Source: Chloroflexota bacterium (GTDB lineage Bacteria; Chloroflexota; Dehalococcoidia; Lucifugimonadales; UBA3495). From it: 64,000 nt of DNA. Where the stretch lies: the NCBI GenBank assembly GCA_027623675.1, contig JAQBVF010000007.1, positions 1 to 64,000 on the forward strand, read 5' to 3'. Position numbers and translations under genes: made by a program. Every line of letters starts with the position of its first letter. Positions within the stretch are counted from its first letter, which is position 1. Below, in pieces: positions 56,483 through 64,000 of this stretch. The notes under the pieces are model-generated. The model worked only from the letters and a program-made list of their open reading frames with translations. It searched no databases and was not told the DNA's origin.

Positions 56483-57043
56483 ATGCAGCAGACACAGGAA
56501 CAACCCCTCCACCGAGACGACCACCGGACCAAGCTGAATCTAACGATTATCTTCGCGTCGATCGTCGCCGTGATTGGCATCTTCGGCCAACCGGTGCTGT
56601 TCGTGATGGGCGTCGGTGTGATGATTTACAGCTGGCTGACCAATCCGAAGCAGTACCTGATCTACCGCGACGCCTTGGTTATCATCTACGGCAAACCCAG
56701 GATCAAGGCCTTCCCCTTCCAAGAGATATCCCACCTGGAGACATTATCGCTGCCGATCGGCGAGCGGCTTCGGGTGCGCATGGTGAACGGCCGCCGTATC
56801 ATGCTGATGACCAAGGACCCGGAGACGTTCCGGGCCAAGCTGGACGAAGCTCTGGAGGCATTCCACGGCGAACAGCAGGGAACGGACTACAACCGGCCCC
56901 AAGAAAACCGGTCAAACGGCGGTCAGCCCGAGTTGACCGATACCGGATACCAACAGGAAGCCCAAGCCGATGCAACGCCGGAAGCGCCCCCTGAAGAGCA
57001 TCGGGGCGAGAGTTCAACCGAGAACGACGACGTTCCCTACTAG
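56483..57043 (+). CDS. Hypothetical membrane protein (2 TM plus PH-like domain, tentative)
   Basis: Two hydrophobic segments, then a beta-rich region and an acidic tail; start uncertain. Confidence 0.55.
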   Translation: MQQTQEQPLHRDDHRTKLNLTIIFASIVAVIGIFGQPVLFVMGVGVMIYSWLTNPKQYLIYRDALVIIYGKPRIKAFPFQEISHLETLSLPIGERLRVRMVNGRRIMLMTKDPETFRAKLDEALEAFHGEQQGTDYNRPQENRSNGGQPELTDTGYQQEAQADATPEAPPEEHRGESSTENDDVPY

Positions 57044-57075
57044 CGTCCGCCCGAGGGTTTTCAACCAGCAATACT

Positions 57076-57106
57076 GCCCGGCCTCGACAAAATGGCCGGG
57101 CTTTTT
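57076..57106 (+). terminator. Rho-independent terminator
   Basis: GCCCGGCC/GGCCGGGC stem followed by TTTTT. Confidence 0.7.
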
Positions 57107-57145
57107 GTTGCCTATCTTTGGGCGGACTGCCCGGCAAGAAGCCGG

Positions 57146-58198
57146 TTAAGGAAGCTGAATCTCTTTGGTGACTGCGGTGGTGTCGCCGAAGTTGCCGCAG
57201 TATAGGACGTGGTACGGCTCAGGCCCTCCGGAAACCGCCACGATTATGTCGTCGGCGGACCGGCAGGGGCACACCAGGTCGCCGTCCATGGCGAAGCCGT
57301 CCTCGTAGGTGATTACCGAAGTCTCCTTGGGAAACCGGTCGATGGGCACCTTGCTGCGCTCGAATAGCTCCTGCTTGACCATCTGCTTGTTGTAGCCATT
57401 TTCCGCGAAGATACGGGAGTGACCGGGCGTAAGTATCACCAGCGGGTTGCCGGCGGCCAACAGGTAGTTGTTGTCGCTGATGTCGGCCATGGCGCTGGCG
57501 ATCATGGTCAGGAAGCTCTCCGGCTCCTTATAGAAGGTGAGGCAGTTGCTGTAGCCCTGCGCTCCCACCACGGTGACCGTGCTCTGCTCCGGCGAGAAAC
57601 CGCGCTCCACATGCAGCGGCTCCCAGACGTTGTCCTCTTCGTTCTCGCCCATGCAGGCGCTGAACTTGGCGGCGCTGCCGTGGACCGCCATGTCGGTGGA
57701 CCAGGGTTTGGCCCCGCCCACGTTCAGCAGCAACAGGCGCAGCGCGCGTCCGATGGTGGCGTTGGCCCGGTAGCCCGGCCCCAATGTGCCTCGGCCGCTG
57801 TTCAACCCGATCCGGCCTCGCACCGGACCGTTCACGATCATGAGCGGCGACGCCGGGTTGGTGGTGGTCTGCAGGCCGTGGATGTTGAAGGCCGGTTCGG
57901 TTACCGCCTGCACGGCGGCGATGAGGACAGGCATGTATTCCGGGAGACAACCAGCCATCACGGCGTTCACCGCGATCTTCTCAACCGTGGCGGCGCCGGC
58001 GTCGGGATTGATGTAACCCACCAACTCCGACGCATCCCGCCCCGCGTATTCCAGCATGGCCCGCACGCGGTCTGCGGTGGGCGGTATCACCGGCAGCCCG
58101 TCGGACCAGCCCTGGTCGATCATGAACTGGAATACGGCTTCGGGGGAGTCTTCGGACAATTCCATCTGAGACGAAGTGAGGCGCGGGTCTACTGCCAT
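57146..58198 (-). CDS. Conserved uncharacterised protein usually adjacent to or fused with UGSC (seleno)proteins
   Basis: GWSDGLPVIPPT, ATVEKIAVNAVMAGC, RANATIGRA and ENEE..WEPLHVERG family motifs. Confidence 0.75.
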   Translation of the reverse strand: MAVDPRLTSSQMELSEDSPEAVFQFMIDQGWSDGLPVIPPTADRVRAMLEYAGRDASELVGYINPDAGAATVEKIAVNAVMAGCLPEYMPVLIAAVQAVTEPAFNIHGLQTTTNPASPLMIVNGPVRGRIGLNSGRGTLGPGYRANATIGRALRLLLLNVGGAKPWSTDMAVHGSAAKFSACMGENEEDNVWEPLHVERGFSPEQSTVTVVGAQGYSNCLTFYKEPESFLTMIASAMADISDNNYLLAAGNPLVILTPGHSRIFAENGYNKQMVKQELFERSKVPIDRFPKETSVITYEDGFAMDGDLVCPCRSADDIIVAVSGGPEPYHVLYCGNFGDTTAVTKEIQLP

Positions 58199-58360
58199 CC
58201 GTTACTCCTGTTTACAAACGTCTCAAAACAAAACCACTCCCTCCGATTCAATTGGAAGGAGCTGCGAGAATCCTAGCTGGATCCAGTTTTTATCGTTCCC
58301 TGGGAGATCCGTCGATCTCTTAAAGAGGCCCACGGCTCCCGCACGGGGCGAAAGCCAGGC

Positions 58361-58569
58361 CTACAGGCTCTTCGCCCTGTGGTCCAGGACGGCCCTCACT
58401 TGGGCGTCGGTCACCCCAGGGAACCATTCAAGAAACTGCGATGTCTGGGCCCCGTCCTCCAGATTCTCGAACAGCGCGGAAACCGGAACGCGGTTGCCAC
58501 GAAATACCCAATCGCCGCTAACCCGCTGCAAAAAAGCACAACTGCTGCGCACGAAGACCAATCCAACAT
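58361..58569 (-). pseudogene. DUF433-family antitoxin, frameshifted
   Basis: ATG 58569 gives MLDWSSCAAV, while RVSGDWVFRGNRVPVSALFENLEDG...FLEWFPGV is in another frame. The shift is near the A6 run at about 58529-58534. Confidence 0.7.
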
Positions 58570-58686
58570 AGCCAAATTTTACCTGCCGTATATCCGCCGT
58601 TCAATTCGTCTAAATGCCTTCATCCCAACAACAAGTTTGTTGGGGGCCTCATCATCCGCAAACTCTGATCAATCTTTCCACACATA

Positions 58687-58906
58687 TCAGCGCCCTTGGA
58701 GAAACTCTTGGACGGTCATGTCTCTGGCGACCTGTCTGAGCAGTGGCGGGGCGATATCCCGGCCTTGATGAAATGGGGACCGTGGTTGCGCGTCCATCGA
58801 GGTGTCCATTTCGCCGGTGCGATCCCCGTCTGCGAACCTCGACGAAACCAAAGCGAACCAGAATCGCGGCAACTTCGCGGGGGCGCAATACCGGGGAGTT
58901 ACGCAT
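58687..58906 (-). pseudogene. hicA: HicA-family toxin, frameshifted
   Basis: MRNSPVLRPREV...GFVEVRRRGSH...DGRATTVP continues as FHQGRDIAPPLLRQVARD in another frame. The shift is at a C4 run near 58775. Confidence 0.78.
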
Positions 58907-58911
58907 GCTGG

Positions 58912-59118
58912 CTACACTGTCACGCGTTGAGTGCCGACAAATTCTCCTTCCAGCTCAGGGTCCCCGTCCTCAAGCAGCATCGCGATGACCTCTTTCAAGT
59001 TTTCGTTTAATTCATCAAGGCTTGCCGCTTGGGAGTGGGCTCCTGGAAAACCAGGCACGTAACCGACATACAATCCGGTCGCCGGATCCTTTTCGATAAC
59101 CGCTGTGTATTCTTTCAT
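58912..59118 (-). CDS. hicB: HicB-family antitoxin (short form)
   Basis: YTAVIEKD..TGLYVGYVPGFPGAHSQAASLDELNENLKEVI; GAGGA RBS. Confidence 0.85.
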   Translation of the reverse strand: MKEYTAVIEKDPATGLYVGYVPGFPGAHSQAASLDELNENLKEVIAMLLEDGDPELEGEFVGTQRVTV

Positions 59119-59165
59119 GGTTGGTCCTCGGGCTAATGGAATCCACGGAACACAGGTGCCCACGA

Positions 59166-59195
59166 TACCGTTCTAACGGGCCCGTTAGAACGGTA
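59166..59195. repeat. Perfect 30-bp palindrome
   Basis: TACCGTTCTAACGGG|CCCGTTAGAACGGTA. Confidence 0.9.
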
Positions 59196-59215
59196 GTACC
59201 TTGGCTTTCTTGGGG

Positions 59216-59755
59216 CTATTCCGGCTCGCGTAGCTGGGCGATTATCAGTTCTACGGCCTCTTTGGCCACGGAGCGCACCACGTCGGGCTCGACGTACTCG
59301 GTGAGTTCGGTCTTGGGCAGGACGACCATGGGCGCGTCGGGCATGCCGTTGCCCCGCATGGAAGCCTTGGCCAGGGTGGTGAACCGCTCGGTTACCAAGA
59401 CCACCGAGGGCATGCCGCTCTTGATCAGTTTAACGCTGTCGTGGACACTCCACGCGGTGCAGGAACCTCAATTTGCCAGGCCGACTATGGCCAGTTGGGC
59501 GCGCGCCTCCACCTCGTCGAAGGTCGCTTGGGGAGCCGCCGAGGCCAGGGGGATCAACCTCTCAAAGACTTCGGTCACACCGTACTGTTCCTTGAGGATG
59601 ATGCCGATCTGCTCGGAGATGATGTTCATGCTGGTCCAGCGGTTGTTCAGTATGGCGACCGTGGCGCCTTGCAGATCGTTTATGTGGGGGATGTGGCCGT
59701 CCATGGGACGCCACGCCTCCGCCGCCGGGCTGAGGATCGACATCTTGTTGACCAT
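59216..59755 (-). CDS. UGSC-family selenoprotein (Sec at TGA 59468-59470)
   Basis: ORFs 59468-59779 and 59216-59413 are in one frame, joined by AAT TGA GGT TCC TGC ACC = N-U-G-S-C-T. A hairpin follows the TGA. AAGGAG RBS before ATG 59755. Confidence 0.85.
59440..59454 (-). promoter_or_regulatory. Putative bacterial SECIS element (UGSC gene)
   Basis: CGUGGA-GUG-UCCACG hairpin starting 13 nt after the UGA. Confidence 0.6.
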
Positions 59756-59793
59756 GGCCATGCTCCTTCGCCTCTCCAAAGGTGAATCCGGAC

Positions 59794-60420
59794 CTAGCGG
59801 TTGGCGGCCGCGCTCTTTGCCGGGTCATACACCGGGCGGACCATCTCGTAACGGTCGCTGGTGCGGCAGTACATGTTGCCCGCCATGCGGCCGGTGGCCA
59901 TGAGCTTCTCCTGGTCGATGCGGTGCCCGTTGATAATGTCGTCACGGACGTGCATCAAGACGATGGTGCCGATAACCAGTCCATGCTCGTGGTCACCGGA
60001 GCCGATCTGCACCACCTGGTCCAGCTTACATTCGATGTTCACCGGAGATTCAAGCACCCTGGGGGCTTTGACGATATCCGAGGGTGCATGGGTCAGCCCG
60101 GCAATCTCGAACTCATCCACGCCCTCGGGGAATTCGGCCGCGGTGGCATTCATCGCCTCAGCAATGGGATCTACCACGATGTTCACCACGAACTCGCCGG
60201 TCTCTTCGATGTTCCGCAGGGTGTCCTTGCTCTTGTTACCAACGTGCCGGGAAGACGAGAAAACGACGGTGGTGTAGGACACGGCATTGAAGAATGAGTA
60301 AGGCGCCAGGTTGACCACGCCGTCGGGGGACACGGAAGATACGAACGCGATGGGCCTGGGAACGATCACTCCGGTGAGGACGCGGTTGAAACCTTCAAAT
60401 GTATTTGGGTCGATCTTCAA
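59794..60420 (-). CDS. Flavin reductase family protein (DIM6/NTAB-like)
   Basis: VPRPIAFVSS, NLAPYSFF, KDTLRNIEETGEFVVN and GRMAGNMY motifs; TTG start. Confidence 0.9.
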   Translation of the reverse strand: MKIDPNTFEGFNRVLTGVIVPRPIAFVSSVSPDGVVNLAPYSFFNAVSYTTVVFSSSRHVGNKSKDTLRNIEETGEFVVNIVVDPIAEAMNATAAEFPEGVDEFEIAGLTHAPSDIVKAPRVLESPVNIECKLDQVVQIGSGDHEHGLVIGTIVLMHVRDDIINGHRIDQEKLMATGRMAGNMYCRTSDRYEMVRPVYDPAKSAAANR

Positions 60421-60528
60421 GTAATTACCTCTACCGGGGGAGTCCCGGCTGCCTTATGATTTTATGTGGGTTGTTTCTGGGGGCTATCTCGTGGGAATTA
60501 TATAGACCGCCAGGGGAGACGCCAAGTT

Positions 60529-60557
60529 TTGACAATCGAAAGTGCCACTGTTATGTT
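60529..60557 (+). promoter_or_regulatory. Putative sigma70 promoter for the comDE-like pair
   Basis: TTGACA, 17 nt, TATGTT. Confidence 0.5.
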
Positions 60558-60638
60558 GGTAGCCGCTCACGCCTGGGGCCTCTCACGTGCTTTTCGGCCG
60601 GTCACCAGGGAGCTACTAGGGCCATTGGAGACAGATAC

Positions 60639-61145
60639 ATGAACTGGGCGGAAATGATAGTCAAAGCGCTCAAGGACTGGGATACGTCCTTGATTGCCTA
60701 TGTGCCGGACATATCCATCCATCGGGTGACCAGCCTGATCGAGGCCGACCCCTACTTCAGATTGGTCGCGGCCACCAGAGAGGAGGAGGCCATCGGCATC
60801 GCGGTCGGGTCTTACGCGGCGGGCCGCAACGCAGCCGTATTCATGCAATCCAGCGGGTTCGGCAATAGCGTAAACGCCCTGGCCAGCCTGTGCATCCCAT
60901 CCAGAACGCCCATCCCCATGTTCGTCAATCTGCGGGGCGGGCCCGGCGAGTTCAACATCGCCCAGGTGGCCATGGGACAAGCCGTCCGGCCTATCATGGA
61001 CCAGTTGGGGCTGGTTCACTTCACACTGGACGACGACCGGAACATGGAAAAGTTGCTCGACGGCGCCATGAAGCTTTGCCACGCCAACCGGCAGCCCTTG
61101 GCGGTGTGCATGACCCAATTGCTGCACGGAGGCAAACTTGCGTAG
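60639..61145 (+). CDS. Sulfopyruvate/phosphonopyruvate decarboxylase alpha-subunit-like (ComD-like)
   Basis: TREEEAIGIAVG, MQSSGFGNSVNAL and RGGPGEFNIAQV motifs. Confidence 0.82.
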   Translation: MNWAEMIVKALKDWDTSLIAYVPDISIHRVTSLIEADPYFRLVAATREEEAIGIAVGSYAAGRNAAVFMQSSGFGNSVNALASLCIPSRTPIPMFVNLRGGPGEFNIAQVAMGQAVRPIMDQLGLVHFTLDDDRNMEKLLDGAMKLCHANRQPLAVCMTQLLHGGKLA

Positions 61146-61710
61146 ATTCGAAGGCACACAAATGATTTTGCGTTTGGCGGGCGATGCGCCCATCGTCAGC
61201 AACCTTGGTCCCGGGTCTGACGACCTTTGGCACGCCGGACACCGCGACCGCAATTTCTACACCTACGGCAACATGGGGCTTTGCTCGTCCCTGGCGCTGG
61301 GCATGGCCATGGCCACCGACGAACAGGTCATTTCCCTGGACGGCGACGGTTCGCTCCTGATGAACCTGGGAACGATCGCATCCATCGGGCGGGAGCAGCC
61401 CAAGAACCTGACGGTGGTGGTATGGGACAACGAAAAGTGGGGCCAGACCGGCGGGCAGACCAGCCACACCGGCATGGGGACCGACCTGGAGCAGGTAGCC
61501 CGAAGCTGCGGGATCGCCCGCACGAAGACCGTGTCGGACCTGGAAGACTTGGAAGCCGCAGTGTCCGAGGCGCTGGCGACTGACGGCCCCAATTTCATAG
61601 TAGCCAAGATCGATGAGGGCGAATATCTGCCGGTGGCCCCGGTGGAGCCCGAGTTCACCCTATACCGTTTCCGGAACACCTTCGTGGAACAGCGACAGCC
61701 CGGCCACTAG
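61138..61710 (+). CDS. TPP-binding decarboxylase beta-subunit-like (ComE-like)
   Basis: NFYTYGNMG, the TPP motif DGDGSLLMNLG...WDN, and TGGQ. Overlaps the upstream stop. Confidence 0.82.
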   Translation: MRRFEGTQMILRLAGDAPIVSNLGPGSDDLWHAGHRDRNFYTYGNMGLCSSLALGMAMATDEQVISLDGDGSLLMNLGTIASIGREQPKNLTVVVWDNEKWGQTGGQTSHTGMGTDLEQVARSCGIARTKTVSDLEDLEAAVSEALATDGPNFIVAKIDEGEYLPVAPVEPEFTLYRFRNTFVEQRQPGH

Positions 61711-61732
61711 CCCCCGATACCGTGGCGCAATC

Positions 61733-61772
61733 ACAAAAGGCCCGTTCATCAACCGACGAACGGGCCTTTTGT
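61733..61772. terminator. Bidirectional terminator between comE-like and deiodinase-like genes
   Basis: ACAAAAGGCCCGTTC/GAACGGGCCTTTTGT. Confidence 0.8.
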
Positions 61773-61795
61773 TGTCGTTGGCCGCTGAGAGACTT

Positions 61796-62536
61796 CTAAC
61801 TGACTTTGGCCCCGGCCTGCATCTTTTGGATCGCGCCGTCCAGTTCTTCTAGGTCGAACAGGTGGGGGCCGGCGCCGCCGTGGTAAACGACTTTGCCGTC
61901 CTTGCCGATCAGGTACAGGCGCTCCGGGGCAGCCCCGTAAGCCTCGTCGATGGCGTTGTCCATCTCTTCAACCAAGGTTGGAAGTGAGATGTGCAGCCCG
62001 ATGGTGCAGGACTGGGCGGCCTCTTCCCGTTCCTCGTAGCTTTGGTGTTGGCGCAGCAGGACACCTTCCTCGACATTGGAATCGGTCTGCCAGCCGTCGG
62101 TGGGGTGGGCCTCTTGAACGTAAACCACGAAGAACTCGATGTGGTCCTGGTACTGGCTGTAGAGTTGCTCCATGCGCTCAACCTGAGCGCGGAAGGGCGG
62201 TCAAGTGTAGCTGCCAAAGATCAGGGCCACGGGCCGTTTATCTTTGAAGCTGGACAGCCGGACCCGCTCCTCCGAGCCCGCCCGCTTTAGTTCGAAATCG
62301 GGGGGCACATCGCCAACGTGAGGGCCCATCTCGTCCCGGGCCACCACTGCTTCCATGGCCTCGCGCAGGATGGGGGTCAGGTTTCCGCCGATCGCCTCTA
62401 GCATCTCGCGGGCCGGCATCTGACCGACGGTCGTCCCCTCGCGTTTTGCCCGGTAGTCGTCCATGAACCGCCGGAACAGTTTCCGGTCATCGCCCTGAAG
62501 GTTCCCCAGTATCTGGTCTCGGTCTGCTTTCAGCAT
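61796..62536 (-). CDS. Iodothyronine deiodinase-like selenoprotein (Sec at TGA 62201-62203)
   Basis: ORFs 62201-62608 and 61796-62173 are in frame: FGSYT-U-PPFRAQVERM. Downstream deiodinase motifs are YVQEAHPTDGW, AYGAAPERLY and GGAGP. Confidence 0.9.
62174..62190 (-). promoter_or_regulatory. Putative bacterial SECIS element (deiodinase-like gene)
   Basis: GCGCUCA-GGU-UGAGCGC perfect 7-bp hairpin starting 10 nt after the UGA, extendable by UUCC/GGAG. Confidence 0.7.
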
Positions 62537-62678
62537 ATCGGCCTTCCCCTTGAGCGCGGGCGCAGATTGATTCGGGGCTATTGTATTCGCCGTGCCTGGC
62601 GATAACAACCCGTCGGACCAGACCCCACCGCCAGTGGGGACGACCAGGACGGACCTCTCGTGTCACCCGGAGTAGAAA

Positions 62679-62710
62679 GACCCGGAGGACGCGGCTGCGT
62701 CCTCCGGGTC
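62679..62710 (-). terminator. Terminator after the dienelactone hydrolase gene
   Basis: GACCCGGAGGACGC/GCGTCCTCCGGGTC stem with TTTCT on the minus strand. Confidence 0.7.
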
Positions 62711-62748
62711 AATCATGTTCAAGCTAGGCCTGGACTGGGAACGTTGGG

Positions 62749-63516
62749 TTATTTGACGTATTTGTCGAACCAGCCTAGGGTGCGGGAGAAGGCGTCCTTG
62801 GCGGCCGCCTCGTTGTAGCTGCCCCGGTCGTCACAGTTGAAGCCGTGACCGGCGCCGGGGTAGGACTTGAAGTCGTAGGTCACGCCTGCTCCCTTAACTG
62901 TGGCCTCAATGGTTGCCACGTCGGCGGGTGACGGGTTCTCGTCCAACTCGCCGAAGTTGCCCATCACGGGAATCTTGATTTTGTTGGTGAGAACGATGGG
63001 AGCGGGACCGTCGCCGAACGGCACCAGGATGCGCCCGCCGTAGTAGACCGATGCGGCGCTCAGGCCCGGGCAGCTGGCGGCGGCCAGGTAGGCGATCCGT
63101 CCGCCCACGCAGTACCCGACGATACCGATCTTGTTGCCGGCGGTCCGTTGGTTCCGGTGTTGCAGATAATCAATGGCAACGTTGATGTCTTCAACGATCT
63201 CGTCGTCGCGCAACGCTCCCATGTATTGCTGCACCGCGGGCATCTCGTCGTATCCCAGTTTGGGATTGGGATGCTGGCGGTGGTATAGGGCAGGGGCAAT
63301 GGCTACGTAGCCATTGGCGGCGTACTGGTCGCAAACCTTTTCGATATGGCCGGTGACCCCAAAAGCCTCCATGATAACGATAACAGCCGGGAAACTGTTT
63401 CCCTTGGAAGGTGAGGGACTGCTGACATAGGTCACCATGTCCTGCCCCTGCGCGCCGTGCAAGTCGTCCATTTCCCGCTCGCCGGGAAATCTTAGATTCT
63501 CCCAAAACGATGGCAT
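62749..63516 (-). CDS. Dienelactone hydrolase family protein
   Basis: EAFG, nucleophile GYCVGG, GELD and YPGAGHGF motifs. Confidence 0.92.
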   Translation of the reverse strand: MPSFWENLRFPGEREMDDLHGAQGQDMVTYVSSPSPSKGNSFPAVIVIMEAFGVTGHIEKVCDQYAANGYVAIAPALYHRQHPNPKLGYDEMPAVQQYMGALRDDEIVEDINVAIDYLQHRNQRTAGNKIGIVGYCVGGRIAYLAAASCPGLSAASVYYGGRILVPFGDGPAPIVLTNKIKIPVMGNFGELDENPSPADVATIEATVKGAGVTYDFKSYPGAGHGFNCDDRGSYNEAAAKDAFSRTLGWFDKYVK

Positions 63517-63867
63517 ATAGATACCTCCTTAACCGTACCGATGTCACCCGCTATAATCCGTCTGCGTCCCGAACTGCCGTCTGATTTGCCTGCAGCTCGT
63601 GAATCGCCCAAATTCTCAGACCAGCGAGGTTCGTGAAGATTCTAGCAGAGGGCATAGTCGCGCACAAGCGCGGATTTTCCGTGACTGTATCGGGCATGTC
63701 TTGACCTCCAGCGGTCCGCCGGTGCTATATTGCAGAGTCCCGTCCACGAGATAACCCGCACCGGTTTCAGGATAAACCGGCCCTGGGAGCATGCTTTGGA
63801 CCGGCCGCGGCGCATCGATGCGATTCGCAACGGTGTTTGGAAGCGGTCAAATCTTGAGGAGAGAGTA

Positions 63868-64000
63868 GTGCGAAAAACCAATATCAGAGTCTTGGCTGAG
63901 ATGAAGGCCCGCGGCGAAAAGATCCCAATGATCACGGCATATGATTATACCTCGGCCCAATTGGCCAGCTTGGCCGGCATACCCCTGTTGTTGGTGGGGG
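63868..64000 (+). CDS. panB: 3-methyl-2-oxobutanoate hydroxymethyltransferase, 5' part (runs off the window)
   Basis: GTG start after GAGGAG; translates as [44 protein letters not shown]. Confidence 0.85.

What the first reader, a model, noticed from the sequence alone, without database searches (positions are those of the whole stretch)
61796..62536. Hidden deiodinase-like selenoprotein split by an in-frame UGA
Seen: two ORF-track genes are in one frame, separated only by TGA 62201-62203 in TTT GGC AGC TAC ACT TGA CCG CCC TTC (FGSYT-U-PPF). A perfect GCGCUCA-GGU-UGAGCGC hairpin starts 10 nt later. Known: this matches the catalytic FGS-x-T-U-P-P-F of iodothyronine deiodinases, and the EAHxxDGW and YGAxPERLY motifs are also present. 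Inference: a ~246-aa selenoenzyme with an extra ~70-aa helical N-terminal domain, possibly a reductive dehalogenase or thiol-redox enzyme. Standard annotation would miss it.
Basis: partly seen in the sequence, partly recalled or inferred. Interest (0 to 1): 0.88.

Follow-up and report, generated by a model that had tools for sequence, protein, structure and literature searches.

The report
Bacterial deiodinase-like selenoprotein gene
Two "split" reading frames are one gene for a soluble, selenocysteine-containing bacterial relative of the thyroid-hormone deiodinases; the call is right, but this family has been known since 2005 and its substrate is still unknown.

Summary
Confirmed, on the minus strand. 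62536-61796 encodes 246 aa with TGA 62203-62201 at the deiodinase catalytic position (FGSYT-U-PPF; PF00837 121 bits; best fold match mouse Dio3, Z 21.7). The genome holds selA, selB, selD and tRNA-Sec. TGA is kept in 65 of 66 related loci covering the column. The downstream hairpin is a SECIS: 92.9% of cells paired, with compensatory changes above shuffled and synonymous-codon controls. In a Planctomycetota sample, the one Cys-codon copy lies in a genome where selB was not found. Relatives are SAR202/Dehalococcoidia. The gene is single-copy, has its own conserved promoter, and has no shared operon. It keeps the whole Dio hydrogen-bond network, including the His219 equivalent that most bacterial homologues lack. 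It has no membrane anchor, neither Dio cysteine, and no Arg275 or Asp211; it has a conserved Cys177 and a four-helix N-domain of unknown fold. Most likely it is a selenol reductase with a peroxiredoxin-type cycle; aryl-halide reduction is plausible (about 0.3) but untested. It is a new member of the deiodinase-like selenoprotein family described in 2005. This scan reported the same gene type in five other genomes.

The parts
61796..62536 (-). Deiodinase-like selenoprotein gene, 246 aa (ATG 62536, stop TAG 61798-61796)
   Evidence: the start Met is invariant in 49 of 49 aligned N-termini, whose starts I chose by the M-x-K motif or, failing that, the first Met 95-130 codons upstream of the TGA; GGGGAAGG lies just upstream
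62201..62203 (-). In-frame TGA = Sec112, aligned with Sec170 of mouse Dio3
   Evidence: TGA in 65 of 66 loci covering the column
62174..62190 (-). Bacterial SECIS hairpin inside the coding sequence; apical loop begins 17 nt after the UGA, with G first
   Evidence: G at that column in 64 of 65 loci
62321..62536 (-). Soluble four-helix N-terminal domain (residues 1-72), clade-specific, no assigned family; it sits where animal Dio has its membrane helix and linker
   Evidence: (maximum 19-residue hydropathy 0.84)
61799..62320 (-). Thioredoxin/peroxiredoxin-fold catalytic core with the deiodinase insertion (EAHPTDGW 62113-62090, QHQS 62050-62039, helix with Cys177, YGAAPERLY 61939-61913)
62580..62608 (-). 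Sigma-70-type promoter-like site TTGTTA-17 nt-TACAAT
   Evidence: AATACAAT invariant in 11 of 11 close relatives aligned; function inferred
62679..62710 (-). Intrinsic-terminator-like hairpin that separates the gene from the upstream dienelactone-hydrolase-family gene
   Evidence: a hairpin plus T-run is seen at the same place in the 11 sequences (read by eye)
61735..61770 (.). 13-bp inverted repeat with A/T ends between this gene and the convergent comE-like gene; probably a bidirectional terminator
   Evidence: read from the sequence; not listed by the scan, whose loop limit is 8 nt (this loop is 10 nt)

Best explanation
One monocistronic gene. SelB reads the in-frame SECIS and inserts selenocysteine at UGA, giving a soluble 246-aa enzyme (shown at the sequence level, about 0.97). 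Inferred mechanism: a ping-pong selenol reductase. The Sec112 selenolate, held by the S109/T111/Y139/E142/H144/H164 network and R206, attacks a small oxidant or electrophile. It is then resolved by Cys177 in the insertion helix (the position of the resolving Cys in poplar GPX5) and re-reduced by a cellular thiol or thioredoxin. I take a housekeeping redox-defence substrate (peroxide-type or similar small oxidant) as slightly more likely than an aryl halide. The four-helix N-domain probably replaces the membrane helix as a dimerisation or stabilising module (inference only). The confidence given is for the whole statement, including the substrate class.
For: Recoding: tRNA-Sec at C23:60570-60666; selA 554.8 bits, selB 347.7 bits, selD 380.3 bits, all over cut-off, and selD itself has an in-frame TGA; TGA conservation; SECIS covariation. 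Of 31 Planctomycetota genomes with the gene tested, selB was found in 29 of 30 with a TGA copy and not in the one with a TGC copy. Fold: pLDDT 90; mouse Dio3 Z 21.7, rmsd 2.8 over 172 residues, then peroxiredoxins Bcp1 and AhpE at Z 17.8 and 17.5. Cys177 is present in 50 of 50 TGA loci, 109 of 150 representatives and 29 of 38 further loci, and lies in helix 167-180; PMC7506546 places GPX5 Cys92 in the equivalent helix. A general redox role fits the many architectures of the domain: EF-hand, TPR and CMD fusions, predicted membrane anchors (read by eye), and up to 5 copies in one genome. The S-x-x-U plus Arg arrangement resembles the peroxiredoxin active site (recalled, not tested).
Against: No activity, expression or protein evidence. 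In Dio3 the distal Cys is far from Sec and PMC7506546 argues it does not resolve directly. Animal Dio enzymes carry the same S-x-x-U and Arg and are deiodinases, so the motif does not favour peroxides. The protein keeps the Dio-specific insertion that peroxiredoxins lack.
Confidence: 0.5

Rival explanations
1. A true reductive dehalogenase: the Sec selenolate removes iodine or bromine from halogenated phenols or tyrosines, as animal Dio does, giving SAR202 a cobalamin- and flavin-free route into halo-aromatics.
For: All residues that the Dio papers name for the proton relay and loop anchor are present (Dio3 S167, T169, Y197, E200, H202, W207, Q218, H219, R225, E259, R260), each in 48-50 of 50 TGA loci (papers). 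The His219 equivalent is rare elsewhere: 7 of 150 representatives, 2 of 30 database homologues, 4 of 30 Planctomycetota loci. P204 and A222 match the Dio1 pattern of a wider site. Deep-sea Chloroflexi carry other dehalogenases (PMC9088039). A dienelactone-hydrolase-family gene is adjacent in the close relatives (13 of 71 loci, upstream), and a distant paralogue is adjacent in 4 further loci.
Against: Arg275, Tyr257, Asp211 and Asp278, which the Dio3 model uses to hold thyronines, are not kept. The hydrolase gene is cut off by a terminator, the genome has 6 matches to that hydrolase, and other clades have unrelated neighbours. No paper found in searches or 87 reports activity for a bacterial member; the 2005 paper expects a different, redox function.
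Confidence: 0.3
2. A protein-disulfide or mixed-disulfide reductase of the TlpA/ResA or monothiol-glutaredoxin kind, acting on a protein partner that the N-domain recruits.
For: ResA, DsbE and TlpA chains are next in the Foldseek list and among the top VIA-align rows. The family has TPR and EF-hand fusions.
Against: There is no UxxC: position +3 is Phe in all 81 aligned sequences. The Dio insertion next to the active site is fully conserved.
Confidence: 0.15
3. TGA is a real stop (pseudogene or two polypeptides), a sequencing error, or is read as Trp.
For: An ATG lies 10 codons after the TGA and is kept in 52 of 65 loci. Databases list two proteins, and 4 of 30 database homologues show W at the column.
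Against: It is always TGA, never TAA or TAG, in 65 of 66 loci and 37 of 38 loci. The alternative codon is TGC. The SECIS covaries. That Met is Ile or Leu in 13 of 65 loci. The stop would cut the thioredoxin fold at its catalytic residue. The genome has tRNA-Trp(CCA) and tRNA-Sec(TCA). Contigs of three runs match the site without change; two of them may be the source sample.
Confidence: 0.03

Closest known systems
Prokaryotic 'deiodinase-like protein' selenoprotein family (Zhang, Fomenko and Gladyshev 2005, PMC1088965; 22 Sec and 21 Cys sequences in GOS, PMC2398784; listed in reviews PMC9312934 and PMC13188914)
   Same: PF00837 domain, Sec at the deiodinase catalytic position, bacterial SECIS with G in a small apical loop, Cys homologues exist, function unknown.
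   Different: The two reviews give the motif as UxxC, whereas this protein has UPPF (the GOS table gives no motif). It has a clade-specific four-helix N-domain and keeps the His219 equivalent. No paper holding both 'SAR202' and 'selenoprotein' was found.
Animal iodothyronine deiodinases Dio1-3 (mouse Dio3 4TR3/4TR4, Dio2 9H48)
   Same: Fold (Z 21.7; 33-34% identity to Dio3), S-x-T-U-P-P-F, deiodinase insertion, complete hydrogen-bond network. The loop is three residues longer than in Dio3, as in Dio2. Pro at Dio3 Phe258 and Ala at Arg275, as in Dio1.
   Different: No transmembrane helix. No proximal Cys (Tyr110) and no Cys at the Dio3 Cys239 position; Cys177 in the insertion helix instead. No Arg275, Tyr257, Asp211 or Asp278. 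The SECIS is in-frame and bacterial, not in a 3' UTR.
NCBIfam NF038285 deiodinase_rel (deiodinase family protein, 347-position model)
   Same: E 3.6e-58 over the catalytic core.
   Different: 197.7 bits, below the 250 cut-off; only model positions 167-340 match.
Atypical 2-Cys peroxiredoxins and glutathione peroxidases (Bcp, AhpE, poplar GPX5)
   Same: Same core fold (Z 17.5-17.8 for Bcp1 and AhpE); a second Cys in the helix where GPX5 has its resolving Cys.
   Different: 17-18% identity, and they lack the deiodinase loop; peroxidase activity is not shown here.

Membership tests
Prokaryotic deiodinase-like selenoprotein | PF00837 domain over the curated cut-off | tested here: met
   121.1 bits, cut-off 27
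Prokaryotic deiodinase-like selenoprotein | In-frame TGA aligned with the catalytic Sec/Cys, conserved in homologues | tested here: met
   65 of 66; 37 TGA, 1 TGC of 38
Prokaryotic deiodinase-like selenoprotein | Bacterial SECIS right after the UGA, with G in a small apical loop | tested here: met
   same geometry as other candidate Sec genes of this genome. bSECISearch itself was not available.
Prokaryotic deiodinase-like selenoprotein | Sec machinery (selA, selB, selD, tRNA-Sec) in the genome | tested here: met
Prokaryotic deiodinase-like selenoprotein | Sec incorporation shown at the protein level | not testable with these tools
   needs 75Se labelling or mass spectrometry; the family itself is computationally defined
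UxxC subtype, as in the motif column of the 2022 and 2026 review tables | UxxC motif | tested here: not met
   UPPF here; UPPC forms occur in other loci (L038, L119, L120). The GOS table gives no motif for the family, so this is a subtype mark and not the family definition.
NCBIfam NF038285 deiodinase_rel | Score of at least 250 bits | tested here: not met
   197.7 bits; not filed under it
Animal iodothyronine deiodinases | N-terminal transmembrane helix | tested here: not met
   maximum 19-residue Kyte-Doolittle mean 0.84; charged four-helix domain
Animal iodothyronine deiodinases | Thioredoxin fold with deiodinase insertion and the Ser/Thr/Tyr/Glu/His/His network | tested here: met
Animal iodothyronine deiodinases | Homodimer needed for activity | not tested
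   no dimer model was obtained; requirement taken from PMC11592359
Animal iodothyronine deiodinases | Reductive deiodination of thyronines | not testable with these tools
   needs an enzyme assay
Peroxiredoxins (AhpC-TSA) | AhpC-TSA domain and fold | tested here: met
   39.1 bits, cut-off 26, far below the PF00837 score
Peroxiredoxins (AhpC-TSA) | Thiol-dependent peroxide reduction | not testable with these tools
   needs an enzyme assay

The most novel reading that the evidence does not exclude
This clade is a soluble, membrane-free selenocysteine dehalogenase for iodinated or brominated aromatics. That would be a cobalamin- and flavin-independent route of microbial reductive dehalogenation, hidden in SAR202, Entotheonella and Planctomycetota genomes by gene splitting, and the functional forerunner of the animal thyroid-hormone deiodinases.
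Probability: 0.25. Interest if true: 0.75.

Novelty: new member of a known kind. Interest (0 to 1): 0.24.

Why it matters
As a gene call it only corrects an annotation: one selenoprotein in place of two fragments. Its value is as a test object. It is a soluble, naturally anchor-free relative that keeps the full deiodinase network, so one assay could settle what bacterial deiodinase-like proteins do, a question left open in the 2005 and 2026 papers read here. The family also looks much more common than the early counts suggested: 32 of 101 Planctomycetota genomes sampled, nearly always with TGA. If it dehalogenates, it would add an overlooked route to marine iodine and bromine cycling and explain where animal deiodinase chemistry came from.

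Tried and rejected
Plus-strand translation: no open frame. Folding energy of the hairpin alone: not significant (8.8% of 2000 synonymous recodings fold as well). A first DNA alignment with mis-set coordinates was discarded and redone. Conserved operon: rejected; the neighbours differ between clades. N-domain: no Pfam family for the window's own domain and only scattered weak hits among 49 members; no solved-structure hit below E 0.25; best fold Z 6.6, which is background for a small helical domain; Atlas hits of 0.81 or less to unnamed clusters. None of this shows a new fold. 'Most homologues are Cys proteins': my first reading of the C letters in database proteins (26 of 30; 132 of 150) was dropped once DNA showed TGA in 37 of 38 further loci; many of those C and W letters may be Sec rendered by pipelines. 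'His219 goes with Sec': rejected, since only 4 of 29 TGA-bearing Planctomycetota loci have it. 'This clade is the closest bacterial kin of animal Dio': not testable, because no eukaryotic sequence was recognised among the listed hits. By PF00837 score the protein ranks 6th of 67 selected homologues, and the tree (quick method only, bacterial rows, midpoint root) says nothing on this. No RNA holder listed. No Rfam match in 57000-64000. No dimer prediction was obtained, so oligomeric state is open. Supplements of the papers were not read and may list SAR202 or Planctomycetota members.

Full report
Observation. The feature is real and lies on the minus strand; the plus strand has no open frame. 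Read with TGA as Sec, 62536-61796 gives 246 residues with U112 in FGSYT-U-PPF. The two standard ORFs, 62201..62608 and 61796..62173, share one frame, and public collections hold the 111-aa and 125-aa pieces as separate proteins. The hairpin GCGCTCA-GGT-TGAGCGC sits at 62190-62174, ten bases after the TGA.

Sec machinery. The genome (91.4% complete) has tRNA-Sec at C23:60570-60666, and selA (554.8 bits), selB (347.7) and selD (380.3), each over its cut-off; selD has its own in-frame TGA. selB was found in 55 of 61 related genomes. A rough script scan flagged 29 of 195 in-frame TGA candidates with a SECIS-like hairpin; about half look like real selenoprotein genes by motif (read by eye), and they share this gene's geometry, with the loop starting 16-20 nt after the UGA. 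The scan missed selD, so it is incomplete.

Conservation of the TGA. Among 61 genomes, 22 including this one have a match of at least 53% identity over the catalytic core or the whole protein, with exactly one TGA; one more is frameshifted and one holds only a 5' remnant. Of 71 loci from a wider genome scan, 69 gave a hit and 66 covered the column: 65 had TGA and one, a distant thioredoxin at 26% identity, had TGC. These loci overlap those and are not independent. Their titles are mostly SAR202/Dehalococcoidia/Chloroflexota, with two Entotheonellaceae, three Planctomycetota and three Longimicrobiales; the quick tree places the window protein with SAR202/Dehalococcoidia rows. In a Planctomycetota sample, 32 of 101 genomes matched PF00837 at E 1e-12 or better, and 45 of 46 matches held one TGA. 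Of 38 further loci read (30 from that sample, 8 from the window's class), 37 had TGA and one TGC at the column. selB was found in 29 of the 30 TGA-bearing genomes tested and not in the TGC-bearing one; it was found in 13 of 20 genomes without the gene. That is a single Cys case in genomes of unreported completeness, so it agrees with Sec decoding but does not prove it. Contigs of two runs that may be the source sample, and one short record of another study, cover the site with no change.

SECIS. Energy alone is weak: z -1.95 for 41 nt and +0.15 for 64 nt. Comparison is strong. The six-pair stem, defined from the window's own sequence, pairs in 92.9% of 396 cells over 66 sequences, with 36 two-sided changes against 10.0 in shuffles (0 of 500 as high) and 21-65% pairing in slid registers; the count of pairs with a two-sided change (4) is not significant (80 of 500). 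With amino acids fixed and codons redrawn, the full stem appears in about 1 of 65 loci against 38 observed. One compensation is non-synonymous: C-G to U-A in 9 loci, with Arg to His at the 3' partner codon in 8. One pair (18-26) is a C-A or other mismatch in 19 of 66. The first loop base is G in 64 of 65, the feature named for bacterial SECIS in PMC1088965 (passages).

Protein. PF00837 scores 121.1 bits and AhpC-TSA 39.1; NF038285 scores 197.7, under its cut-off of 250. The best solved relatives are mouse Dio3 (E 3.6e-28) and Dio2. The model has pLDDT 90.1 and matches Dio3 at Z 21.7, rmsd 2.8 over 172 residues, ahead of the peroxiredoxins Bcp1 and AhpE (Foldseek also ranks Dio3 and Dio2 first). 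I mapped Dio3 numbering by counting along the alignment. Kept in 48-50 of 50 TGA loci are the equivalents of S167, T169, Y197, E200, H202, W207, Q218, H219, R225, E259 and R260, the residues that PMC11592359 (passages, section 13 and part 1 of section 14) and PMC7506546 (passages) assign to the proton relay, loop anchor and pocket floor. Not kept are both Dio cysteines (C168 is Tyr, C239 is aliphatic), R275 (Ala, as in Dio1), F258 (Pro, as in Dio1), Y257, D211 and D278. Cys177 is invariant in the 50 loci and lies in the insertion helix, where PMC7506546 places the resolving Cys of poplar GPX5. The His219 equivalent is a clade mark: 48 of 50 here, 7 of 150 representatives, 4 of 30 Planctomycetota loci. 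Residues 1-72 form four helices, are not hydrophobic, hit only close relatives among the stored proteins and have no informative family or fold match.

Context. The gene is single-copy. A terminator-like hairpin at 62710-62679 and a promoter-like site at 62608-62580 separate it from the upstream dienelactone-hydrolase-family gene; AATACAAT is invariant in 11 of 11 close relatives. A comDE-like pair converges on it from below (under cut-off). This arrangement holds only in the closest relatives; other clades have other neighbours. In a sample of the class, 16 of 201 genomes pass the PF00837 cut-off, several only marginally, so the gene is patchy. Context gives no substrate.

Mechanism. Shown from sequence: one gene, Sec at the catalytic position, deiodinase fold and network. 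Inferred: the selenolate attacks a small electrophile, is resolved by Cys177 and re-reduced by a thiol system, as in atypical 2-Cys peroxidases; the N-domain may supply the dimerisation that Dio needs (PMC11592359), which I could not model. I put about 0.5 on a peroxide-type or similar redox-defence substrate, 0.3 on aryl halides, 0.15 on protein disulfides and 0.03 on no recoding. For dehalogenation speak the full network and the halo-organic metabolism reported for deep-sea Chloroflexi (PMC9088039 and PMC12750322, passages; neither mentions deiodinases). Against it speak the missing thyronine-binding residues, the lack of an operon, and the many fusion architectures of the domain (an EF-hand fusion is already reported in PMC9402790, passages).

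Comparison and verdict. Sec- and Cys-containing bacterial deiodinase-like proteins with bacterial SECIS were described in 2005 (PMC1088965, passages), counted again in GOS (PMC2398784, passages) and listed in reviews that call the functions of such proteins largely unknown (PMC13188914, passages; table entry also in PMC9312934, passages). A Dictyostelium homologue is known (PMC2375036, passages). Searches of the held library found no biochemical study of a bacterial member and no paper joining SAR202 and selenoproteins; most subscription papers and all supplements were outside what I saw. Five earlier reports of this scan reached the same verdict on other genomes; I had reached it before that look-up, and they are not independent evidence. 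The finding is correct and is a new member of a known family. Interest 0.24.

Noticed in passing
window 59216-59779, minus strand; TGA 59470-59468: A second split selenoprotein 2.3 kb away: UGSC family (ANUGSC), PF24696 108 bits when read through, with a SECIS-like hairpin. It lies between a flavin-reductase-like gene and, further downstream, a 350-aa gene without a Pfam match (57146-58198).
   Followed up: partly
G000 genome-wide: Apparently a large selenoproteome: seven UGSC-like genes (C12, C13, C17, C20, two on C35, C46), three CxxU, two Prx/Trx-like UPxC, one UPAC, plus selD. Labels were read from motifs by eye, and the scan is rough.
   Followed up: partly
L136-L165 (Planctomycetota sample): Deiodinase-like genes in 32 of 101 genomes, up to 5 copies, 45 of 46 matches with one TGA; far more common than the early counts of 4 and 22 sequences suggest.
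   Followed up: partly
P0002-P0338: Database homologues show C or W at the Sec column, although DNA from genomes mostly shows TGA; counts of 'Cys homologues' taken from protein collections may be inflated.
   Followed up: partly
L036 (G021) and L037 (G006): One relative has a frameshift just after the SECIS stem, and one keeps only the first 52 codons: decay or assembly error.
   Followed up: no
L038, L039, L043, L119, L120: A second, distant deiodinase-like subfamily in relatives with U-P-P-C or U-P-Y-C (UxxC), the motif that the reviews list.
   Followed up: no
L059-L110 subsets: Clade-specific neighbours: in 17 loci a rhodanese-like, a cupin-like and a sulfite-oxidase-like gene lie upstream; in 5 loci the gene follows a methionine-salvage/SAM-cycle run ending in metK. 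Names were recognised by eye and not searched.
   Followed up: no
L059, L062, L063, L082: A distant dienelactone-hydrolase paralogue (about 30% identity) lies directly downstream, while the closest relatives have one directly upstream. This may be chance, as the family is multicopy.
   Followed up: partly
window 58361-59163: Three small ORFs that look like a DUF433 gene and a HicB/HicA-type toxin-antitoxin pair, the HicA-like one apparently frameshifted (recalled resemblance, not searched).
   Followed up: no
window 60639-61710, plus strand: Sulfopyruvate-decarboxylase-like alpha/beta pair (TIGR03845 and TIGR03846, both under cut-off), convergent on the gene.
   Followed up: partly
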